From assembly GCF_011745625.1 (NCBI RefSeq), contig NW_027191457.1, forward strand, positions 124,001 to 188,000: a stretch of DNA of 64,000 bases. Direction: 5' to 3'. Shown piece after piece: positions 33,552 to 37,900 of this stretch. Within the stretch, counting starts at the first letter, position 1. Each line of letters begins with the position of its first letter. Source of the DNA: Cladosporium halotolerans (taxonomy: Eukaryota). The position numbers and the translations under genes were made by a program. The notes under the pieces were generated by a model that was not told the origin of the DNA, did no database searches, and saw nothing but the letters and a program-made list of their open reading frames with translations.

Positions 33552-33563
33552 AAAAAGCAAAAA
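33552..33563 (-). terminator. Pol III-type oligo-T terminator downstream of tRNA-Ser
   Basis: The minus strand reads TTTTTGCTTTTT, starting 8 nt after the discriminator base. Confidence 0.7.
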
Positions 33564-33604
33564 GATATTTCGACACCTGTGTGATTCGAACACACGCTCC
33601 CGAA

Positions 33605-33660
33605 CTGGACAATTGTTAGGACATGTCGGATGAGATGAGATCTTTGAGGCTCGAACTTAC
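33605..33660 (-). other. Spliceosomal-type intron 2 of tRNA-Ser (56 nt, in the variable arm)
   Basis: GTAAGT donor, CCTAAC branch site at 33620-33615, GTCCAG acceptor. Confidence 0.9.
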
Positions 33661-33697
33661 GGAACTGCCTTAGCAGGGCAGCGCGTTAACCACTCCG

Positions 33698-33752
33698 CTG
33701 GAGAACTTGTTAATGCCCGTCCGTGACCGATGGATGCTTGGAGCAAGCTTAC
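33698..33752 (-). other. Spliceosomal-type intron 1 of tRNA-Ser (55 nt, between tRNA positions 10 and 11)
   Basis: GTAAGC donor, CATTAAC branch site at 33715-33709, TTCTCCAG acceptor. Confidence 0.88.
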
Positions 33753-34983
33753 CCAAAGTGCCAATTGATGAATCGGTGACGACATTGGAAGTTTCACAAA
33801 CTATATAACTCAATTTTGAAGTAGGGAAGCCCTAAGCGCCGAATTCCTTGGACTTTCGAGACGCCGAGCAGAAGATCAATCTTCAACATGAGTGCAATGC
33901 AGTAAATCTAGTAATGATGGAAGAAAATAGACAGCGTCTTGCATTACTTTGCTACAGATGCTTAGATAGTCAACACTCAGCTAACCATCACGTGCCCTAA
34001 GTCTTGCAAGCTTTTGAAGACTTCAAGTCATGTTCTAGTAGAGTGAATGTATTGGACGCTAGGTCGAAATACATCTCCATAGTCGATGGAAAATATAGTA
34101 CCGGGTAACTCCTTTTCCTAGCAGAGACAGGAGAATAGAAACACATAGTAGTAACGACTTTTTCCTGGGAACAGTTTGTATACAAAACTTGATTCTGTAT
34201 GAAAATTCGATTCTGTATGATCCAGTGAATGAGCTCTTCTTGCGTAAGGCAACGGCATCCATAGCCGCCTCGGAACCTGCACGACAGTCAAGTCACATCA
34301 CTTCACTCCGCCTCAGCGTGGCCGAATCATGCGTTGCTTGTGAAGGCATCCGTAGGCGACGGCGCGCGGGTTACGAAACCGGCTTAGCGCAGAGAGCTCC
34401 CGCATGGGCTTGGCTGCAGCTTTGCAACAACGCGCCTCACGCTTTCTCGCCCGCCAGCAAGCACTACAAGAAAAGCTGCCCGCCAGCATCCGCGCGCTGC
34501 GCTACTCTTCAACCAAATCTCTCCTTTAGCGTGTACATTACGACCAGAACTGCGACCCGTGTCTGCGCCAGCGACGGCGCTCGACGACCCCTTCGACATC
34601 GCCATTCAGCGACGTCTCTTCACGACTACGCGCGCGTCTTGTCTTTGACATTCTCGCAGCAGCTGCAATACCACAAGGTACGAGGCAGTCCAGCAACTTT
34701 GCGCGTAGCATTTTCGCTGCGCTCGTTTGATTCCGCACGGCTTGAGCACCATTTGACTGCTGGGCGTCAGGAGACTGGCGCACTGGAGCTCGGCAAGGAG
34801 TCTACTTCCGGGTTGAACTCGAGGACATACTTTGCTAACTTAGACCCCTTACAGGCTTTCACTGCACCCATCTCCCGCCATCCCGCGCTTGCGCGCTTGC
34901 GCGAAATCATTTGCGACCTGTCCACCTGCATAGTGGCTCCTTCACTAGACTTGCAGTGCACCAGCTCGATCTAAACCACCAGT

Positions 34984-37900
34984 ATGTCGTTCGGGTTTGG
35001 CAGTGGCAACACCGGCTCAACCTTCGGCGGCTTCGGTAGCAATAACAATAACAACAACACGAACACCTCGGGCGGCTCACTCTTTGGTGGGAACACTTCC
35101 ACATCAGGTGGCTTTGGAAGTGGTGGTGCAACTGGAGGTTTCGGAAGCGGCAACGCGAGTAACCCTTTCGGTCAGAACAAGACCACTTTTGGCTCACCTG
35201 CTGCCACGTCAGGAGGCGGCATGTTCGGTGGAGCGGGAACCAGCACCACGGGTGGCTTCGGCTCCGGGGGTGGCTTTGGCAGCACAAATAACACTGCGAA
35301 CACCGGGTTCGGCTCAACGAACACTTCCGGTACGTTGATTCCTGGGAAACACCCGCTTTAGAATGCAAGGACTAACTCTCGTTTAGGAGGCGGCCTCTTC
35401 GGTCAGAGCAAGCCCGCTACTGGCGGGTTCGGCAGTAGCACCGCCGCTCCAAGTGGAGGTGGCCTCTTTGGTTCCTCCAACACTGGCGGAGGGTTTGGCT
35501 CCACCAACACAGCGCAAAGCAATCCTTTTGGAGGCAGTAGCACGGCCACCAGCAACCCGTTTGGTGGTGGGGCCTCTGGCACAACCGGTGGATTTGGCGC
35601 AAGCAACACGAACAACACAGGCTCAGGCTTCGCGTTTGGCGGCAACAACAACGCCAGTGCTACTGGCAATGCCAACCAAGGCACCTCAGGGACACCCTTC
35701 CAAGCTGTCACCGAGAAGGATGGCAGCTCGAGCCAGACTAGCTCTTATCAGAGCATCACAATGCAGCAGCCTTACCAAGCCAAGAGTTTCGAAGAGCTGA
35801 GAGTGGAGGACTACATGCAGAATCGTCGCCTTCCTCAGAGCGGCAGTTTTGGCGGTGGCAGTACTTTTGGTGGCTTCGGACAGAGCAACAGCACTGCGGC
35901 ACCGGCTGCTCAGACTGGTGGTGGACTGTTCGGCGGTGGCAGCAGCACTGGTGGTTTCGGAGCCTCTAATACAAACACCGGATTCGGCGCGAACGCCAAC
36001 TCGAACACCGGATCGGGCTTTGGTGCTAGCAATACTGGTGGTGGTCTTTTTGGCGCGAAGCCTGCAACTGGTGGTGGTCTCTTCGGCAACAACGCTGCCA
36101 GTAGCGGTACATCCACTGGAGGGTTTGGCGCCACTTCTGGGAGTGGCGGCGGGCTTTTTGGAAACAACCAGCAGAGCAACACGGGCAGTGCGTTTGGCGG
36201 CGGCAGCACCGGTGCATTTGGATCCACGAACAACAATACCTCAGGAGGGGGCCTGTTTGGTCAGTCGAACCAAACTCAGAACAAGCCTGCGTTCGGCGGC
36301 TTCGGCTCGTCCACGACCAACACTGGCACTACAGGCGGATTTGGACAGACCAACAACTCTTCCCAGCCCCAGCAAGGAGGCGGCCTGTTCGGCAACAACG
36401 CGTCGAGCACTGGAGGTTTCGGCGCTAGCAACACAGGCGGATCTTTGTTTGGAGGCCAGCAAAACAAGCCTGCTAGTGGCGGATTGTTCGGCGGAAGCAC
36501 CACCGGGACATCAAACACCGGCGGCGGACTCTTTGGCGGCGCGAACAACTCGAACACCAACACTCAGAGCGGGGGCTTCGGACAGTCGACCGGCAACACC
36601 GGCGGTGGCCTCTTTGGCTCCAACAACAACAATCAGAGTGCCAACACAGGCGGCAGCCTTTTTGGCAACAACCAGAACAAGCCTGCAGGCGGTGGACTTT
36701 TCGGCTCGAGCACGACTGGTAGCAACACGGGCGGAGGATTGTTTGGCAACAACAACCAGCAGAGCTCAAATACCGGCGGCTCACTGTTCGGAAACAACCA
36801 GACTCAGCAGAACACGGGCGGATCTCTCTTCGGTGGTCAGCAGAACAAGCCGGCGGGCGGCAGCCTCTTTGGTAACAGCACTGGTGGTGGTGGCTCGCTG
36901 TTCGGCAATACCCAGAACCAGAGCTCGGGTGGCCTCTTCGGTGGAGGGAACAACACCAACCAGACCGGCGGATCTAGTCTTTTCGGGAACAACAACCAGA
37001 ACCAGAACCAAGGCGCAGGCTCTAGCCTATTCGGGGGCAGCCAGCAGCAGCAACCTCAGCAGAACCAGTTGACGGCGACACTGACGGGCGATCCTTACGG
37101 CAATGCTCAGCTCTTCTCGTCTCTTGCAGCTCCCAGTCCACCAGTCGGTCCTCTCGCGACCCCCCTCAGCGGAGCAAAGGCTCCGCCCAAGCCTAGGACC
37201 TCGTTGCTTTCGTCTGTCCGCGGAAGCACTCCCATGCTTGGAGCGAGCCAATCGATGACGCCGCGGACAAGGCCTGGCTATGGTTTCTCTTACAGCGCTT
37301 ACAACAGCCCAAGCTCTGCGTCTCAGTCTCTTACGCCCGGTGCGGCAGGTCTTCTCCGTCCCACTGGCTCCTTTGGCTCTTCACTCTCCGGCAAACTTTC
37401 CAAGAGCTTTTCTTCATCCAACTTGCGTGGCGATGCTCCTCCTGAGGGTCAGTCTCTGTTGCGAACCCCGGCGGCAGGCCAATCATCGCTTCTCCTTGGC
37501 AACGGCAATGGCTCGTTCGGATCGGGTAGTGCCAGGAAACTCAAGATCGATCGCAATCTCAGGACTGATCTGTTCGGTGACAACACTCCCAAGCAGAAGC
37601 AAGTCGAAGGTGCCAAGGACCAGGATTCCATGCGGAAGCGTGTAAGCTTCGACCAGACCGCCGAAGAAACCCCAGCCAAGCCGACGGCGGCTAATTCTCT
37701 GGTCGTTCGCGAAGAAGAGGAGAACAACACGCCGACTGGTACCCCCGAGGCTCCACGCGTTAACGGCAGCGCCCTCGACTCGGTTCCCGAGGAGTCCAAC
37801 ACTCCTAAGGCTACAGCATCGCCGAAGTCCAGGAAGCCGTTGGATCCTGGTGATTACTTCACTTCGCCCTCGCTCAAGGTGCTCAAGGGCATGTCTCGCC

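What the first reader, a model, noticed from the sequence alone, without database searches (positions are those of the whole stretch)
33571..33762. Nuclear tRNA-Ser(GCT) gene interrupted by two spliceosomal (GT-AG, branch-point) introns
Seen in the sequence: the minus strand reads GGCACTTTGG [gtaagc...cattaac aagttctccag] CGGAGTGGTTAACGCGCTGCCCTGCTAAGGCAGTTCC [gtaagt...cctaac aattgtccag] TTCGGGAGCGTGTGTTCGAATCACACAGGTGTCG. The 55- and 56-nt inserts match the mRNA introns of this window in size, donor, branch site and acceptor. Removing them exactly at GT/AG restores an 81-nt cloverleaf with all stems paired, a long variable arm and G73, both serine identity elements. Established: eukaryotic tRNA introns normally sit at position 37/38 and are removed by the SEN/TSEN endonuclease and a tRNA ligase; spliceosomal introns are known in some fungal ncRNAs such as U6 snRNA and rRNA. 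Inference: this tRNA matures through the spliceosome, a route I do not know to be described for tRNAs. Intact exons around two independent introns argue for a functional gene.
Basis: partly seen in the sequence, partly recalled or inferred. Interest (0 to 1): 0.97.

Follow-up and report, generated by a model that had tools for sequence, protein, structure and literature searches.

The report
Serine tRNA gene with mRNA-type introns
A fungal nuclear gene for the serine tRNA that reads AGC/AGU codons is split by two short introns that look just like messenger-RNA introns, and the same split gene is conserved in related fungi, so this tRNA very probably needs the spliceosome to mature, a route not described for tRNAs.

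Summary
On the minus strand, 33762-33571 holds three exon pieces (10, 37 and 34 nt) separated by 55- and 56-nt inserts. Removing the inserts at GT/AG gives an 81-nt tRNA-Ser(GCT) cloverleaf. tRNA finders see nothing in the raw locus.

A metagenome scan that used no splice signals returned 17 loci, and 10 are tRNA-Ser(GCT) genes with GT..AG inserts:
- Five share both window intron positions.
- Four carry two other introns flanking an 8-nt micro-exon in the T loop.
- One has a single intron in the T stem.

Exons are 82-100% identical, while introns and flanks are 27-52% identical to the window. Every stem pair is kept, several through compensatory double changes. All 19 inserts are 50-57 nt, with a YTNAY branch motif 10-13 nt before the 3' AG. 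The 17 tested lack the bulge-helix-bulge motif used by tRNA endonucleases.

The host is a Dothideomycete fungus. T-run terminators and a TATA box suggest Pol III transcription. No RNA data could be obtained, so splicing is inferred. Ten literature searches found no description of spliceosomal introns in tRNA genes.

The parts
33802..33807 (-). TATA-like box (TATATA), 45 nt upstream of tRNA position 1
   Evidence: a TATA[TA][ATG] motif lies at -37 to -48 in 5 of 5 complete class-A loci. It is absent within 80 nt upstream in L013, L017 and L004 (L014 has one at -67). Its role as start-site determinant is inferred.
33753..33762 (-). Exon 1: tRNA positions 1-10 (5' acceptor strand, U8, G9, G10)
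   Evidence: Identical (10/10) in every class-A homologue compared.
33698..33752 (-). Intron 1, 55 nt, between tRNA positions 10 and 11. GTAAGC donor, TTAAC branch motif (33709-33713, A at 33710, 12 nt before the 3' end), CAG acceptor.
   Evidence: It is 40-49% identical to the orthologous introns, against 100% for the flanking exons. It has no bulge-helix-bulge motif and no other copy in the window.
33661..33697 (-). Exon 2: positions 11 to the 5' half of the variable arm (D arm, anticodon arm with GCT anticodon)
   Evidence: Identical (37/37) in all class-A homologues.
33690..33700 (-). A-box-like DNA element (CAG of intron 1 plus CGGAGTGG of exon 2)
   Evidence: Read and compared with the Pol III A-box consensus TRGCNNAGTGG (recalled). 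The intron's terminal AG stands where R9-G10 would be. All class-A loci read YAG+CGGAGTGG. Function inferred.
33605..33660 (-). Intron 2, 56 nt, inside the variable arm (between nt 47 and 48 of the 81-nt tRNA). GTAAGT donor, CTAAC branch motif (33615-33619, A at 33616, 11 nt before the 3' end), CAG acceptor.
   Evidence: It is 41-52% identical to the orthologous introns, and the branch region is conserved. It has no bulge-helix-bulge motif.
33571..33604 (-). Exon 3: 3' half of the variable arm, T arm, 3' acceptor strand, discriminator G73
   Evidence: Identity to homologues is 28-34 of 34, and all differences are compensatory pairs in the T stem.
33582..33592 (-). B-box region (T stem/loop, TGTTCGAATCA), contiguous in exon 3
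   Evidence: Read. The T loop TTCGAAT is invariant in all loci. The B-box consensus is recalled.
33552..33563 (-). Two T5 runs, 8 and 15 nt after G73: Pol III terminator-like
   Evidence: a T>=4 run starts 5-10 nt after G73 in 7 of 7 class-A and class-C loci, and at +47 to +49 in the 3 class-B loci with a 3' flank. There is no T>=4 inside any of the 8 complete gene bodies.

Best explanation
This is a functional nuclear gene for tRNA-Ser(GCU) in a Dothideomycete fungus. Its coding sequence is interrupted by two ordinary U2-type (GT-AG, branch-point) spliceosomal introns, at tRNA position 10/11 and inside the variable arm.

Proposed pathway:
1. The gene is transcribed as a roughly 210-nt precursor. 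Pol III is the most likely polymerase, starting some 10-15 nt upstream of position 1 under the direction of the conserved TATA box and ending at the T5 run 8 nt after G73.
2. The spliceosome removes both introns as lariats.
3. RNase P, RNase Z and the CCA-adding enzyme finish the 81-nt tRNA, which seryl-tRNA synthetase recognises through the long variable arm and G73.

Shown here, in silico: the exon-intron anatomy; the splice signals; conservation of exons against divergence of introns; compensatory changes in stems; exact junctions confirmed by homologues without the intron; absence of a BHB motif; and the terminator and TATA pattern.

Inferred: that the spliceosome is the machine, which polymerase is used, the order of processing steps, and that the tRNA is charged and used.

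The gene family has taken up such introns at no fewer than five different sites in related organisms.
For: 1. Spliced product. The in-silico spliced product is an 81-nt tRNA-Ser(gct) for the window and for 8 of 8 complete metagenome homologues. The raw loci give no tRNA.

2. Splice-signal-free scan. A metagenome scan that required only D-loop, anticodon-loop and T-loop motifs with an over-long spacing returned 17 loci. Ten have inserts that start GT and end AG.

3. Splice signals. All 19 insert instances (16 distinct sequences) are 50-57 nt. Each has a YTNAY motif whose A lies 10-13 nt from the 3' end, followed by YAG or AAG. This matches the candidate mRNA introns of the window.

4. Selection. 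Window against other class-A loci:
- exon 1: 10/10 identical
- exon 2: 37/37 identical
- exon 3: 28-32 of 34 identical
- introns: 40-52% identical
- flanks: 27-43% identical

5. Structure. All stem pairs except 13:22 are kept in 9 of 9 sequences. Double compensatory changes occur at 12:23, 28:42, 30:40, three variable-arm pairs and three T-stem pairs. The variable-arm pairs straddle intron 2 in class A, and the T-stem pairs straddle the class-B introns.

6. Junction check. Classes A, B and C each lack the others' introns and encode the predicted junctions contiguously, in the same 81-nt register.

7. No canonical BHB. The central helix has 0-2 of 4 pairs in 17 of 17 inserts, against 3-4 of 4 in 4 of 4 canonical-position controls from the same scan.

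8. Pol III signs. T>=4 runs lie 5-10 nt after G73 in 7 of 7 class-A/C loci. There is no T>=4 inside any gene body. TATA lies at -37 to -48 in 5 of 5 class-A loci.

9. Precedent. mRNA-type introns occur in Pol III-transcribed fungal U6 genes and in other ncRNA genes (passages of PMC5855946; PMC5832005).
Against: - No RNA evidence of any kind was obtained.
- The rest of the genome is not held. I cannot say whether an intron-less tRNA-Ser(GCU) gene exists elsewhere and does the work.
- Intron 1 puts the A-box-like element about 65 nt downstream of tRNA position 1. That is far outside the usual A-box-to-start distance of tRNA genes (recalled), so a normal TFIIIC-directed start would fall inside intron 1. 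The TATA box is my proposed answer, and it is untested.
- The 10-nt first exon, and the 8-nt micro-exon of class B, are short for spliceosome assembly.
- Absence of T4 runs inside the introns does not discriminate. Only 2 of 29 candidate mRNA-intron rows in this GC-rich window contain T4.
- The homologues are few and related (4 distinct spliced sequences among 9), so counts of loci are not counts of independent events.
Confidence: 0.8

Rival explanations
1. The same functional, spliceosome-dependent tRNA gene, but transcribed by RNA polymerase II from the TATA box as a short non-coding transcript. It is spliced co-transcriptionally in the usual way, and the tRNA is then cut out by RNase P and RNase Z.
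For: Splicing is normally coupled to Pol II (statement of the field in PMC12530127). There is a conserved TATA box at -37 to -48 in 5 of 5 class-A loci. The internal A box is displaced by intron 1. Class-B loci have a conserved 3' trailer of about 45 nt before the first T run.
Against: A T>=4 run lies 5-10 nt after G73 in 7 of 7 class-A/C loci, and no T>=4 lies inside any gene body. Both are what a Pol III unit needs and a Pol II unit does not. In all three architectures the A-box-like and B-box sequences stay contiguous in the DNA: the introns' terminal AG replaces R9-G10 in class A and G53 in class B. That looks like selection for an internal Pol III promoter. Pol III transcripts can be spliced, as with fungal U6.
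Confidence: 0.25
2. The inserts are removed by the tRNA splicing endonuclease and tRNA ligase, or by another protein-only pathway, through non-canonical recognition. This would resemble the ectopic introns of the red alga Cyanidioschyzon merolae. The GT..AG ends would then be incidental.
For: All nuclear tRNA introns described so far use this pathway (abstract and passages of PMC12530127). Ectopic and multiple tRNA introns removed through BHB motifs exist in C. merolae (abstract of PMC3728597 in the listing; passage of PMC3978253). A loose scoring scheme gave intron 1 of class A a helix next to both junctions.
Against: In the canonical BHB register the central helix has 0-2 of 4 pairs in 17 of 17 inserts, against 3-4 of 4 in four controls. 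None of the five positions is 37/38. GT, a YTNAY motif at 10-13 nt and a terminal AG are kept in 19 of 19 inserts while the rest of each intron has diverged to about 40-50% identity. Only spliceosomal recognition explains that pattern. The loose score did not separate these inserts from random positions (11 of 17 inserts had fractions of 0.67-0.94).
Confidence: 0.04
3. The locus is a dead or decaying tRNA gene, or a tRNA-derived repeat, that happened to be hit by insertions. AGY codons are read by another, intact tRNA-Ser(GCU) gene.
For: No transcript evidence. The rest of the genome was not available. tRNA finders do not call the locus.
Against: Exons 1 and 2 are 100% identical across loci whose introns and flanks are 27-52% identical to the window. 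T-stem, anticodon-stem and variable-arm differences are all compensatory. Splice signals, terminators and TATA are conserved. Neither intron has another copy in the window. The flanks share no synteny with the window, so the similarity is not recent common descent of a neutral stretch.
Confidence: 0.04

Closest known systems
mRNA-type (spliceosomal) introns in fungal U6 snRNA genes (Schizosaccharomyces pombe and many other fungi; Tani and Ohshima 1989, 1991; Canzler et al. 2016, as cited in PMC5855946, passages read)
   Same: A short GT-AG, branch-point intron sits inside a small structured non-coding RNA gene that Pol III transcribes. The introns occur at several lineage-specific positions and are conserved at the splice sites but not elsewhere. 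The gene has an upstream TATA box together with internal promoter boxes.
   Different: The host RNA is a tRNA, not a spliceosome component, so the 'reverse splicing into an RNA at the catalytic centre' argument for U6 does not apply directly. There are two introns per gene, and in one lineage an 8-nt micro-exon. The product must afterwards enter the tRNA end-processing, modification and charging pathway.
Spliceosomal introns in other ncRNA genes: U1, U2 and U5 snRNA of Rhodotorula, fungal U3 snoRNA, rDNA of ascomycetes (PMC5855946; PMC5832005)
   Same: Normal spliceosomal signals in genes for structural RNAs, mostly in fungi. Lineage-specific insertion sites. For most of them the evidence is computational only, as here.
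   Different: None of the lists in those passages includes a tRNA. Most of those genes are Pol II (or Pol I) units.
Canonical nuclear tRNA introns removed by the SEN/TSEN endonuclease and a tRNA ligase (PMC12530127, abstract and passages)
   Same: An intervening sequence in a nuclear tRNA gene that must be removed precisely before the tRNA can work.
   Different: Canonical introns sit between positions 37 and 38 and are recognised through the mature domain and a bulge-helix-bulge-like fold (recalled). Here the positions are 10/11 and the variable arm (T arm in relatives). There is no BHB, and GT/branch/AG signals are conserved.
Ectopic and multiple tRNA introns of Cyanidioschyzon merolae and of archaea (PMC3728597, abstract seen in listing; PMC3978253, passage)
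   Same: tRNA genes interrupted at non-canonical positions, sometimes several times, and invisible to standard tRNA finders.
   Different: Those introns are defined by BHB motifs and cut by the splicing endonuclease. The inserts here have none and carry spliceosomal signals.
Group I and group II introns in bacterial and organellar tRNA genes (recalled, not looked up here)
   Same: A non-endonuclease splicing route for a tRNA.
   Different: Those introns are large self-splicing ribozymes in organelles and bacteria. Here the introns are 50-57 nt in a nuclear gene.

Membership tests
Nuclear class II tRNA, tRNA-Ser(GCU) | Cloverleaf with 7-bp acceptor, D, anticodon and T arms, and conserved D-loop GG and T-loop TTCGAAT | tested here: met
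   After in-silico removal of the inserts, ARAGORN draws the full cloverleaf. All stem pairs are kept in 9 of 9 homologues, except 13:22, which is G.A in all.
Nuclear class II tRNA, tRNA-Ser(GCU) | Anticodon GCT, long variable arm and G73 (serine identity elements; their role is recalled) | tested here: met
   Anticodon gct, a 13-nt variable region with a 3-bp stem, and discriminator G.
Nuclear class II tRNA, tRNA-Ser(GCU) | Mature, CCA-tailed, aminoacylated RNA exists | not testable with these tools
No RNA data.
U2-type spliceosomal intron | 5' GT with donor-like hexamer | tested here: met
   The window has GTAAGC and GTAAGT. All 19 homologous inserts start GT; 15 of 19 have G at position 5, and the 4 class-B intron-1 copies read GTAAAT.
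U2-type spliceosomal intron | Branch-site motif (fungal CTRAY-like) a short, fixed distance upstream of the 3' splice site, and a 3' YAG | tested here: met
   A YTNAY motif with its A 10-13 nt from the 3' end is present in 19 of 19 inserts. The acceptor is YAG in 18 of 19 and AAG in 1.
U2-type spliceosomal intron | Size and signals like the mRNA introns of the same genome | tested here: met
   The inserts are 55 and 56 nt. ORF-supported candidate mRNA introns of the window are mostly 46-71 nt with the same donor, branch and acceptor types (heuristic set, not transcript-verified).
U2-type spliceosomal intron | Excision as a lariat by the spliceosome | not testable with these tools
   Needs RNA data or genetics.
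SEN/TSEN-type tRNA intron | Position 37/38 in the anticodon loop | tested here: not met
   The positions are 10/11 and the variable arm. In relatives they are 51/52, 53/54 and 61/62.
SEN/TSEN-type tRNA intron | Bulge-helix-bulge fold (3-nt bulges, 4-bp central helix) at the two cut sites | tested here: not met
   The central helix has 0-2 of 4 pairs in 17 of 17 inserts, against 3-4 of 4 in 4 controls.
Pol III type-2 (tRNA-type) transcription unit | Internal A and B boxes | tested here: inconclusive
   The B box is contiguous in exon 3. An A-box-like sequence exists only as intron-AG plus exon 2, about 65 nt downstream of position 1. The consensus sequences are recalled.
Pol III type-2 (tRNA-type) transcription unit | Oligo-T terminator just downstream and none inside | tested here: met
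   A T5 run lies at +8. T>=4 runs lie at +5 to +10 in 7 of 7 class-A/C loci. None lies inside 8 of 8 complete gene bodies.
Pol III type-2 (tRNA-type) transcription unit | Pol III occupancy or dependence | not testable with these tools
   Needs ChIP or inhibitor experiments.
Introner-like elements of Dothideomycetes | Many near-identical intron copies in one genome | tested here: inconclusive
   Neither intron has another copy in the 64-kb window or in the 17 loci beyond short chance words. The rest of the genome is not held. Old introners decay into ordinary introns (recalled).

The most novel reading that the evidence does not exclude
In a clade of Dothideomycete fungi, and in at least two other lineages with different intron sites, the gene that supplies tRNA-Ser(GCU) is obligately spliceosome-dependent. 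It would be a Pol III transcript, started from a TATA box because intron 1 has displaced the A box, and it is spliced by the spliceosome before it can become a tRNA. Decoding of AGC/AGU serine codons would then hang on spliceosome activity. The gene has been colonised by spliceosomal introns at least five separate times, once leaving an 8-nt micro-exon that is little more than the T loop. So spliceosomal introns can invade and persist in tRNA genes, and standard tRNA annotation silently misses an essential tRNA in these genomes.
Probability: 0.45. Interest if true: 0.95.

Novelty: new variant of a known kind. Interest (0 to 1): 0.9.

Why it matters
Current accounts treat the nuclear intron types as separate worlds: spliceosomal introns in Pol II transcripts, and endonuclease-cut introns in tRNAs (PMC12530127). 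A conserved tRNA gene with spliceosomal introns breaks that division and adds a new maturation route for a tRNA.

- It offers a second, independent case besides U6 of the spliceosome working on a probable Pol III transcript. It is experimentally tractable in culturable fungi.
- It gives a natural series of intron gains at five sites in one 81-nt gene, useful for studying how spliceosomal introns arise in structured RNAs.
- It tests the limits of splicing: a 10-nt first exon and an 8-nt internal exon.
- In practice, tRNA finders report no tRNA-Ser(GCU) at these loci. Genome annotations and codon-usage or tRNA-supply analyses of these fungi may therefore be missing an essential decoder.

Tried and rejected
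- Whole-genome search for other tRNA-Ser(GCU) copies or other split tRNAs: no genome is held for the window. The metagenome records behind the loci cannot be searched.
- First intron-finding heuristic: too noisy in this GC-rich window (388 rows). I replaced it with a stricter pattern plus ORF support.
- Loose BHB scoring with free bulge registers: it did not discriminate, since random positions scored as high for most introns. I replaced it with the canonical register and positive controls.
- T4 depletion inside the introns as an argument for Pol III: rejected as weak, because T4 is rare in this window's candidate mRNA introns too (2 of 29 rows).
- Synteny: no flank of any metagenome locus matches the window's neighbours, so orthology rests on the gene itself.
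- Introner family: the introns have no other copies in the window.
- Precursor structure: the unspliced 192-nt RNA is not unusually stable (z = -0.41).
- Lineage of the class-B loci: the protein search with the L013 flank found nothing, and Pfam on flanks gave only weak or generic hits. The lineage remains unknown.
- Earlier notes of this scan: none for this genome, place or sequence. One unrelated-genome note describes an alga's tRNA-Ala with an mRNA-type intron; I did not test it.
- Seven of the 17 scanned loci (L005-L011) are other kinds of tRNA-Ser(GCT) genes. Four have canonical-position inserts and served as controls. L006, L007 and L009 were not resolved.
Full report
THE OBSERVATION

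- exon 1: 33762-33753 (10 nt)
- intron 1: 33752-33698 (55 nt)
- exon 2: 33697-33661 (37 nt)
- intron 2: 33660-33605 (56 nt)
- exon 3: 33604-33571 (34 nt)

ARAGORN finds no tRNA anywhere in the window. It finds none in the raw locus, even when allowed an anticodon-loop intron. Rfam at curated thresholds finds nothing. Permissive Rfam settings give one sub-threshold tRNA hit (26.1 bits against a gathering score of 29) that pieces together exon 2 with bits of both introns.

When the two inserts are removed exactly at GT and AG, ARAGORN calls an 81-nt tRNA-Ser(gct). It has a 7-bp acceptor stem, a long variable arm and discriminator G.

As a chance control, I removed every one or two intron-like stretches on both strands of the whole window, 1456 virtual splicings in all. 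Nine produced a tRNA call, and all nine were at this locus.

THE SETTING

The locus lies between a UNC-93/MFS-like gene and a Nup98-type nucleoporin gene. Both are on the plus strand, and the locus is antisense to them. The window also holds genes for poly(A)-binding protein, a kinesin, a laccase, PDS5 and a P-type ATPase, so it is ordinary nuclear DNA.

The best named relatives of the poly(A)-binding protein are all Dothideomycetes, of the group that includes rock-inhabiting black fungi:
- Cryoendolithus antarcticus, 82% identity
- Zasmidium cellare, 84%
- Hortaea werneckii, 77%
- Meristemomyces frigidus, 80%

Candidate mRNA introns of the window were found by a strict signal pattern plus open reading frames on both sides. 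They are mostly 46-71 nt. They have GTAAGT, GTGAGT or GTACGT-type donors and CTAAC or CTGAC 7-25 nt (mostly 9-17) before a YAG (167 pattern matches, 29 ORF-supported rows at 19 acceptor sites; heuristic, not transcript-verified). The two tRNA inserts fit this description.

RELATIVES

No genome is held for the window, so I scanned public metagenome contigs. The pattern asked only for the D-loop motif, the anticodon loop with GCT, and a T-loop motif 60-90 nt further on, which is too far for an uninterrupted tRNA. It contained no splice signal.

Seventeen loci came back. Seven (L005-L011) are other kinds of tRNA-Ser(GCT) genes. At least four of these have inserts at the canonical anticodon-loop position.

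The other ten have inserts that begin GT and end AG:
- Class A: L001, L002, L012, L016 and the truncated L003. These have both introns at exactly the window's positions.
- Class B: L013, L015, L017 and the truncated L014. These have neither window intron. Two other introns, between positions 53/54 and 61/62, leave an 8-nt micro-exon (TTCGAATC) that is essentially the T loop.
- Class C: L004. This has one intron, between positions 51/52 in the T stem.

All 8 complete loci, like the window, give an 81-nt tRNA-Ser(gct) after removal of the inserts and no tRNA before it. A blind intron-aware scan of all 17 loci (5704 virtual splicings) recovered the same 8 genes. It found no further split tRNA in their flanks, apart from a few calls in L002 (antisense) and L009 that I regard as spurious or unresolved.

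The flank of L016 encodes a mitochondrial AAA protease whose best named relatives are again Dothideomycetes of the same group. The lineage of classes B and C could not be determined.

SELECTION

Identity between the window and the other class-A loci:

| Region | Identity |
|---|---|
| Exon 1 | 10/10 |
| Exon 2 | 37/37 |
| Exon 3 | 28-32 of 34 |
| Intron 1 | 40-49% (complete loci) |
| Intron 2 | 41-52% |
| Flanks | 27-43% |

No flank shares synteny with the window.

The only exon differences within class A are in the T stem, and they are compensatory: GTGTG/CACAC in the window, AAGAG/CTCTT in L001, and GAGTG/CACTC in L003.

Over all nine complete genes, every stem pair is a standard pair except 13:22, which is G.A in all nine. 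Double compensatory changes occur at one D-stem pair, two anticodon-stem pairs, all three variable-arm pairs and three T-stem pairs (only 4 distinct spliced sequences, so these are few events). The variable-arm pairs lie on either side of intron 2 in class A. The T-stem pairs lie on either side of the class-B introns.

EXACT JUNCTIONS

Each class serves as the intron-less reference for the others. Class-B and class-C loci encode contiguously the sequence that class A yields only after removal of GT..AG at 10/11 and in the variable arm. Class A encodes contiguously the T arm that class B yields only after removal of its two inserts. All come out in the same 81-nt register. This is the classical comparative proof of intron boundaries, and it places them at GT|AG.

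WHICH MACHINE

All 19 insert instances (16 distinct sequences) share these features:
- They are 50-57 nt long.
- They start GT.
- They carry a YTNAY motif whose A is 10-13 nt from the 3' end.
- They end YAG (18 of 19) or AAG (1 of 19).

These signals are kept while the rest of each intron has diverged.

For the endonuclease pathway I tested the canonical bulge-helix-bulge register: two exon nucleotides in the first bulge, one in the second. The 4-bp central helix has 0-2 pairs in 17 of 17 inserts of the complete loci. It has 3-4 pairs, plus 3 of 3 outer pairs, in four canonical-position introns from the same scan (L005, L010, L008, L011). A looser scoring scheme did not discriminate, and I set it aside. 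None of the five positions is 37/38. The spliceosome is therefore by far the best candidate, but this is an inference from sequence.

WHICH POLYMERASE

- A run of four or more T starts 5-10 nt after G73 in 7 of 7 class-A and class-C loci. In the window it is a T5 run at +8, followed by a second one.
- In the three class-B loci with a 3' flank, the T run starts at +47 to +49.
- No such run occurs inside any of the 8 complete gene bodies.
- A TATA-like motif lies 37-48 nt upstream of position 1 in 5 of 5 complete class-A loci. It is absent within 80 nt in L013, L017 and L004.

In every architecture the internal promoter sequences remain contiguous in the DNA. In class A the intron's terminal AG stands in for R9-G10 in front of CGGAGTGG. 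In class B the upstream intron's AG supplies G53 in front of TTCGAATC. The box consensus sequences are recalled, not looked up.

I read this as a Pol III unit. In class A intron 1 has pushed the A box about 65 nt downstream, so the TATA box probably sets the start site, as in fungal U6 genes. This is inference. A Pol II origin is the main rival and would not change the central point.

The unspliced 192-nt RNA is not unusually stable (z = -0.41). In the centroid fold the acceptor stem, anticodon arm and T arm already form, with the introns looped out.

WHAT IS KNOWN

Ten full-text searches of the held library found no paper describing a spliceosomal intron in a tRNA gene. Phrase hits were all of the form 'non-spliceosomal tRNA introns' or 'non-spliceosomal splicing of tRNA'. 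The library lacks most subscription journals, so this is not proof of absence.

Passages I read:
- The 2018 U6 review lists U6, U2, U5, U1 and rRNA genes as ncRNA hosts of spliceosomal introns, and notes that most U6 cases lack experimental validation (PMC5855946).
- A 2017 paper adds fungal U3 (PMC5832005).
- A 2025 paper states that spliceosomal introns occur in mRNAs and other Pol II transcripts, that tRNA introns are removed by TSEN, and that the intron types appear completely unrelated (PMC12530127, abstract and passages).
- Passages of two intron-origin papers that mention tRNA (PMC5647799, PMC11146597) say nothing relevant.

I did not test it. If it is right, the phenomenon is not confined to fungi.

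Dothideomycetes are known for bursts of intron gain by introner-like elements (recalled; the term was searched). The two window introns have no other copies in the window, so any such origin is old or untestable here.

VERDICT

This is a conserved, selected tRNA-Ser(GCU) gene whose interruptions have every sequence hallmark of spliceosomal introns and none of tRNA-type introns. Relatives show at least five independent insertion sites.

I put 0.8 on a functional, spliceosome-spliced tRNA gene. Within that, I give roughly two to one for Pol III over Pol II transcription.

Noticed in passing
L013:1488-1677 (+), L015:1-185 (+), L017 (minus strand, rc 1214-1398), L014 (truncated): A second architecture of the same tRNA-Ser(GCT) gene. 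It has no introns at the window's sites. Two GT..AG introns of 50-55 nt lie at positions 53/54 and 61/62, leaving an 8-nt micro-exon, TTCGAATC, that is essentially the T loop and the core of the B box.
   Followed up: partly
L004 (minus strand, plus-strand coordinates 520-654): A third architecture, in a more divergent tRNA-Ser(GCT) with a different acceptor, anticodon stem and variable arm. It has one 54-nt GTATGT..CTAAC..CAG intron between positions 51 and 52 of the T stem, followed by a T9 run 9 nt after G73.
   Followed up: partly
L013:1678-1730, L015:186-235, L017 (3' trailer of the class-B genes): The 45-48 nt between G73 and the first T run is conserved among the three class-B loci, far better than their introns. 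It contains a small hairpin (GTTGTC-loop-GACAAT). Its meaning is unknown: a processing signal, a promoter element or a second small RNA are all possible.
   Followed up: no
window 33637-33707 (-): Permissive Rfam search gives a sub-threshold tRNA hit (26.1 bits, gathering score 29). It pairs the end of intron 1 with the start of intron 2 around exon 2. The start of the window's intron 2 (GTAAGTTCGAGCC) resembles a T arm or B box, but this is not conserved in the other class-A loci, so I take it as chance.
   Followed up: partly
window 33802-33807 (-) and the equivalent places in L001, L002, L012, L016: A TATA box at -37 to -48 goes with the architecture in which intron 1 displaces the A box (5 of 5). 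It is missing where exon 1 carries an intact A box (L013, L017, L004). The sample is small and the loci are related, but this fits a TATA-set start site.
   Followed up: partly
L001, L002, L003 and L016 (contigs of one metagenome): Four different class-A copies, with different introns and flanks, occur in a single metagenome. Either several related fungi live together there, or one genome holds several split copies. The data cannot separate the two.
   Followed up: no
L005 and L010; L006, L007, L008, L009, L011: The same scan picked up tRNA-Ser(GCT) genes with long inserts at or near the canonical anticodon-loop site. L005 and L010 have a textbook bulge-helix-bulge motif (4 of 4 central pairs). 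L009 sits in a tight tRNA gene cluster, and its insert starts GTGAGT. I did not resolve what removes it.
   Followed up: partly
window 35330-35386 (+): A 57-nt GTACGT..CTAAC..TAG intron joins the two open frames of the Nup98-type nucleoporin gene next to the tRNA locus. It is a good local example of the mRNA intron type.
   Followed up: no
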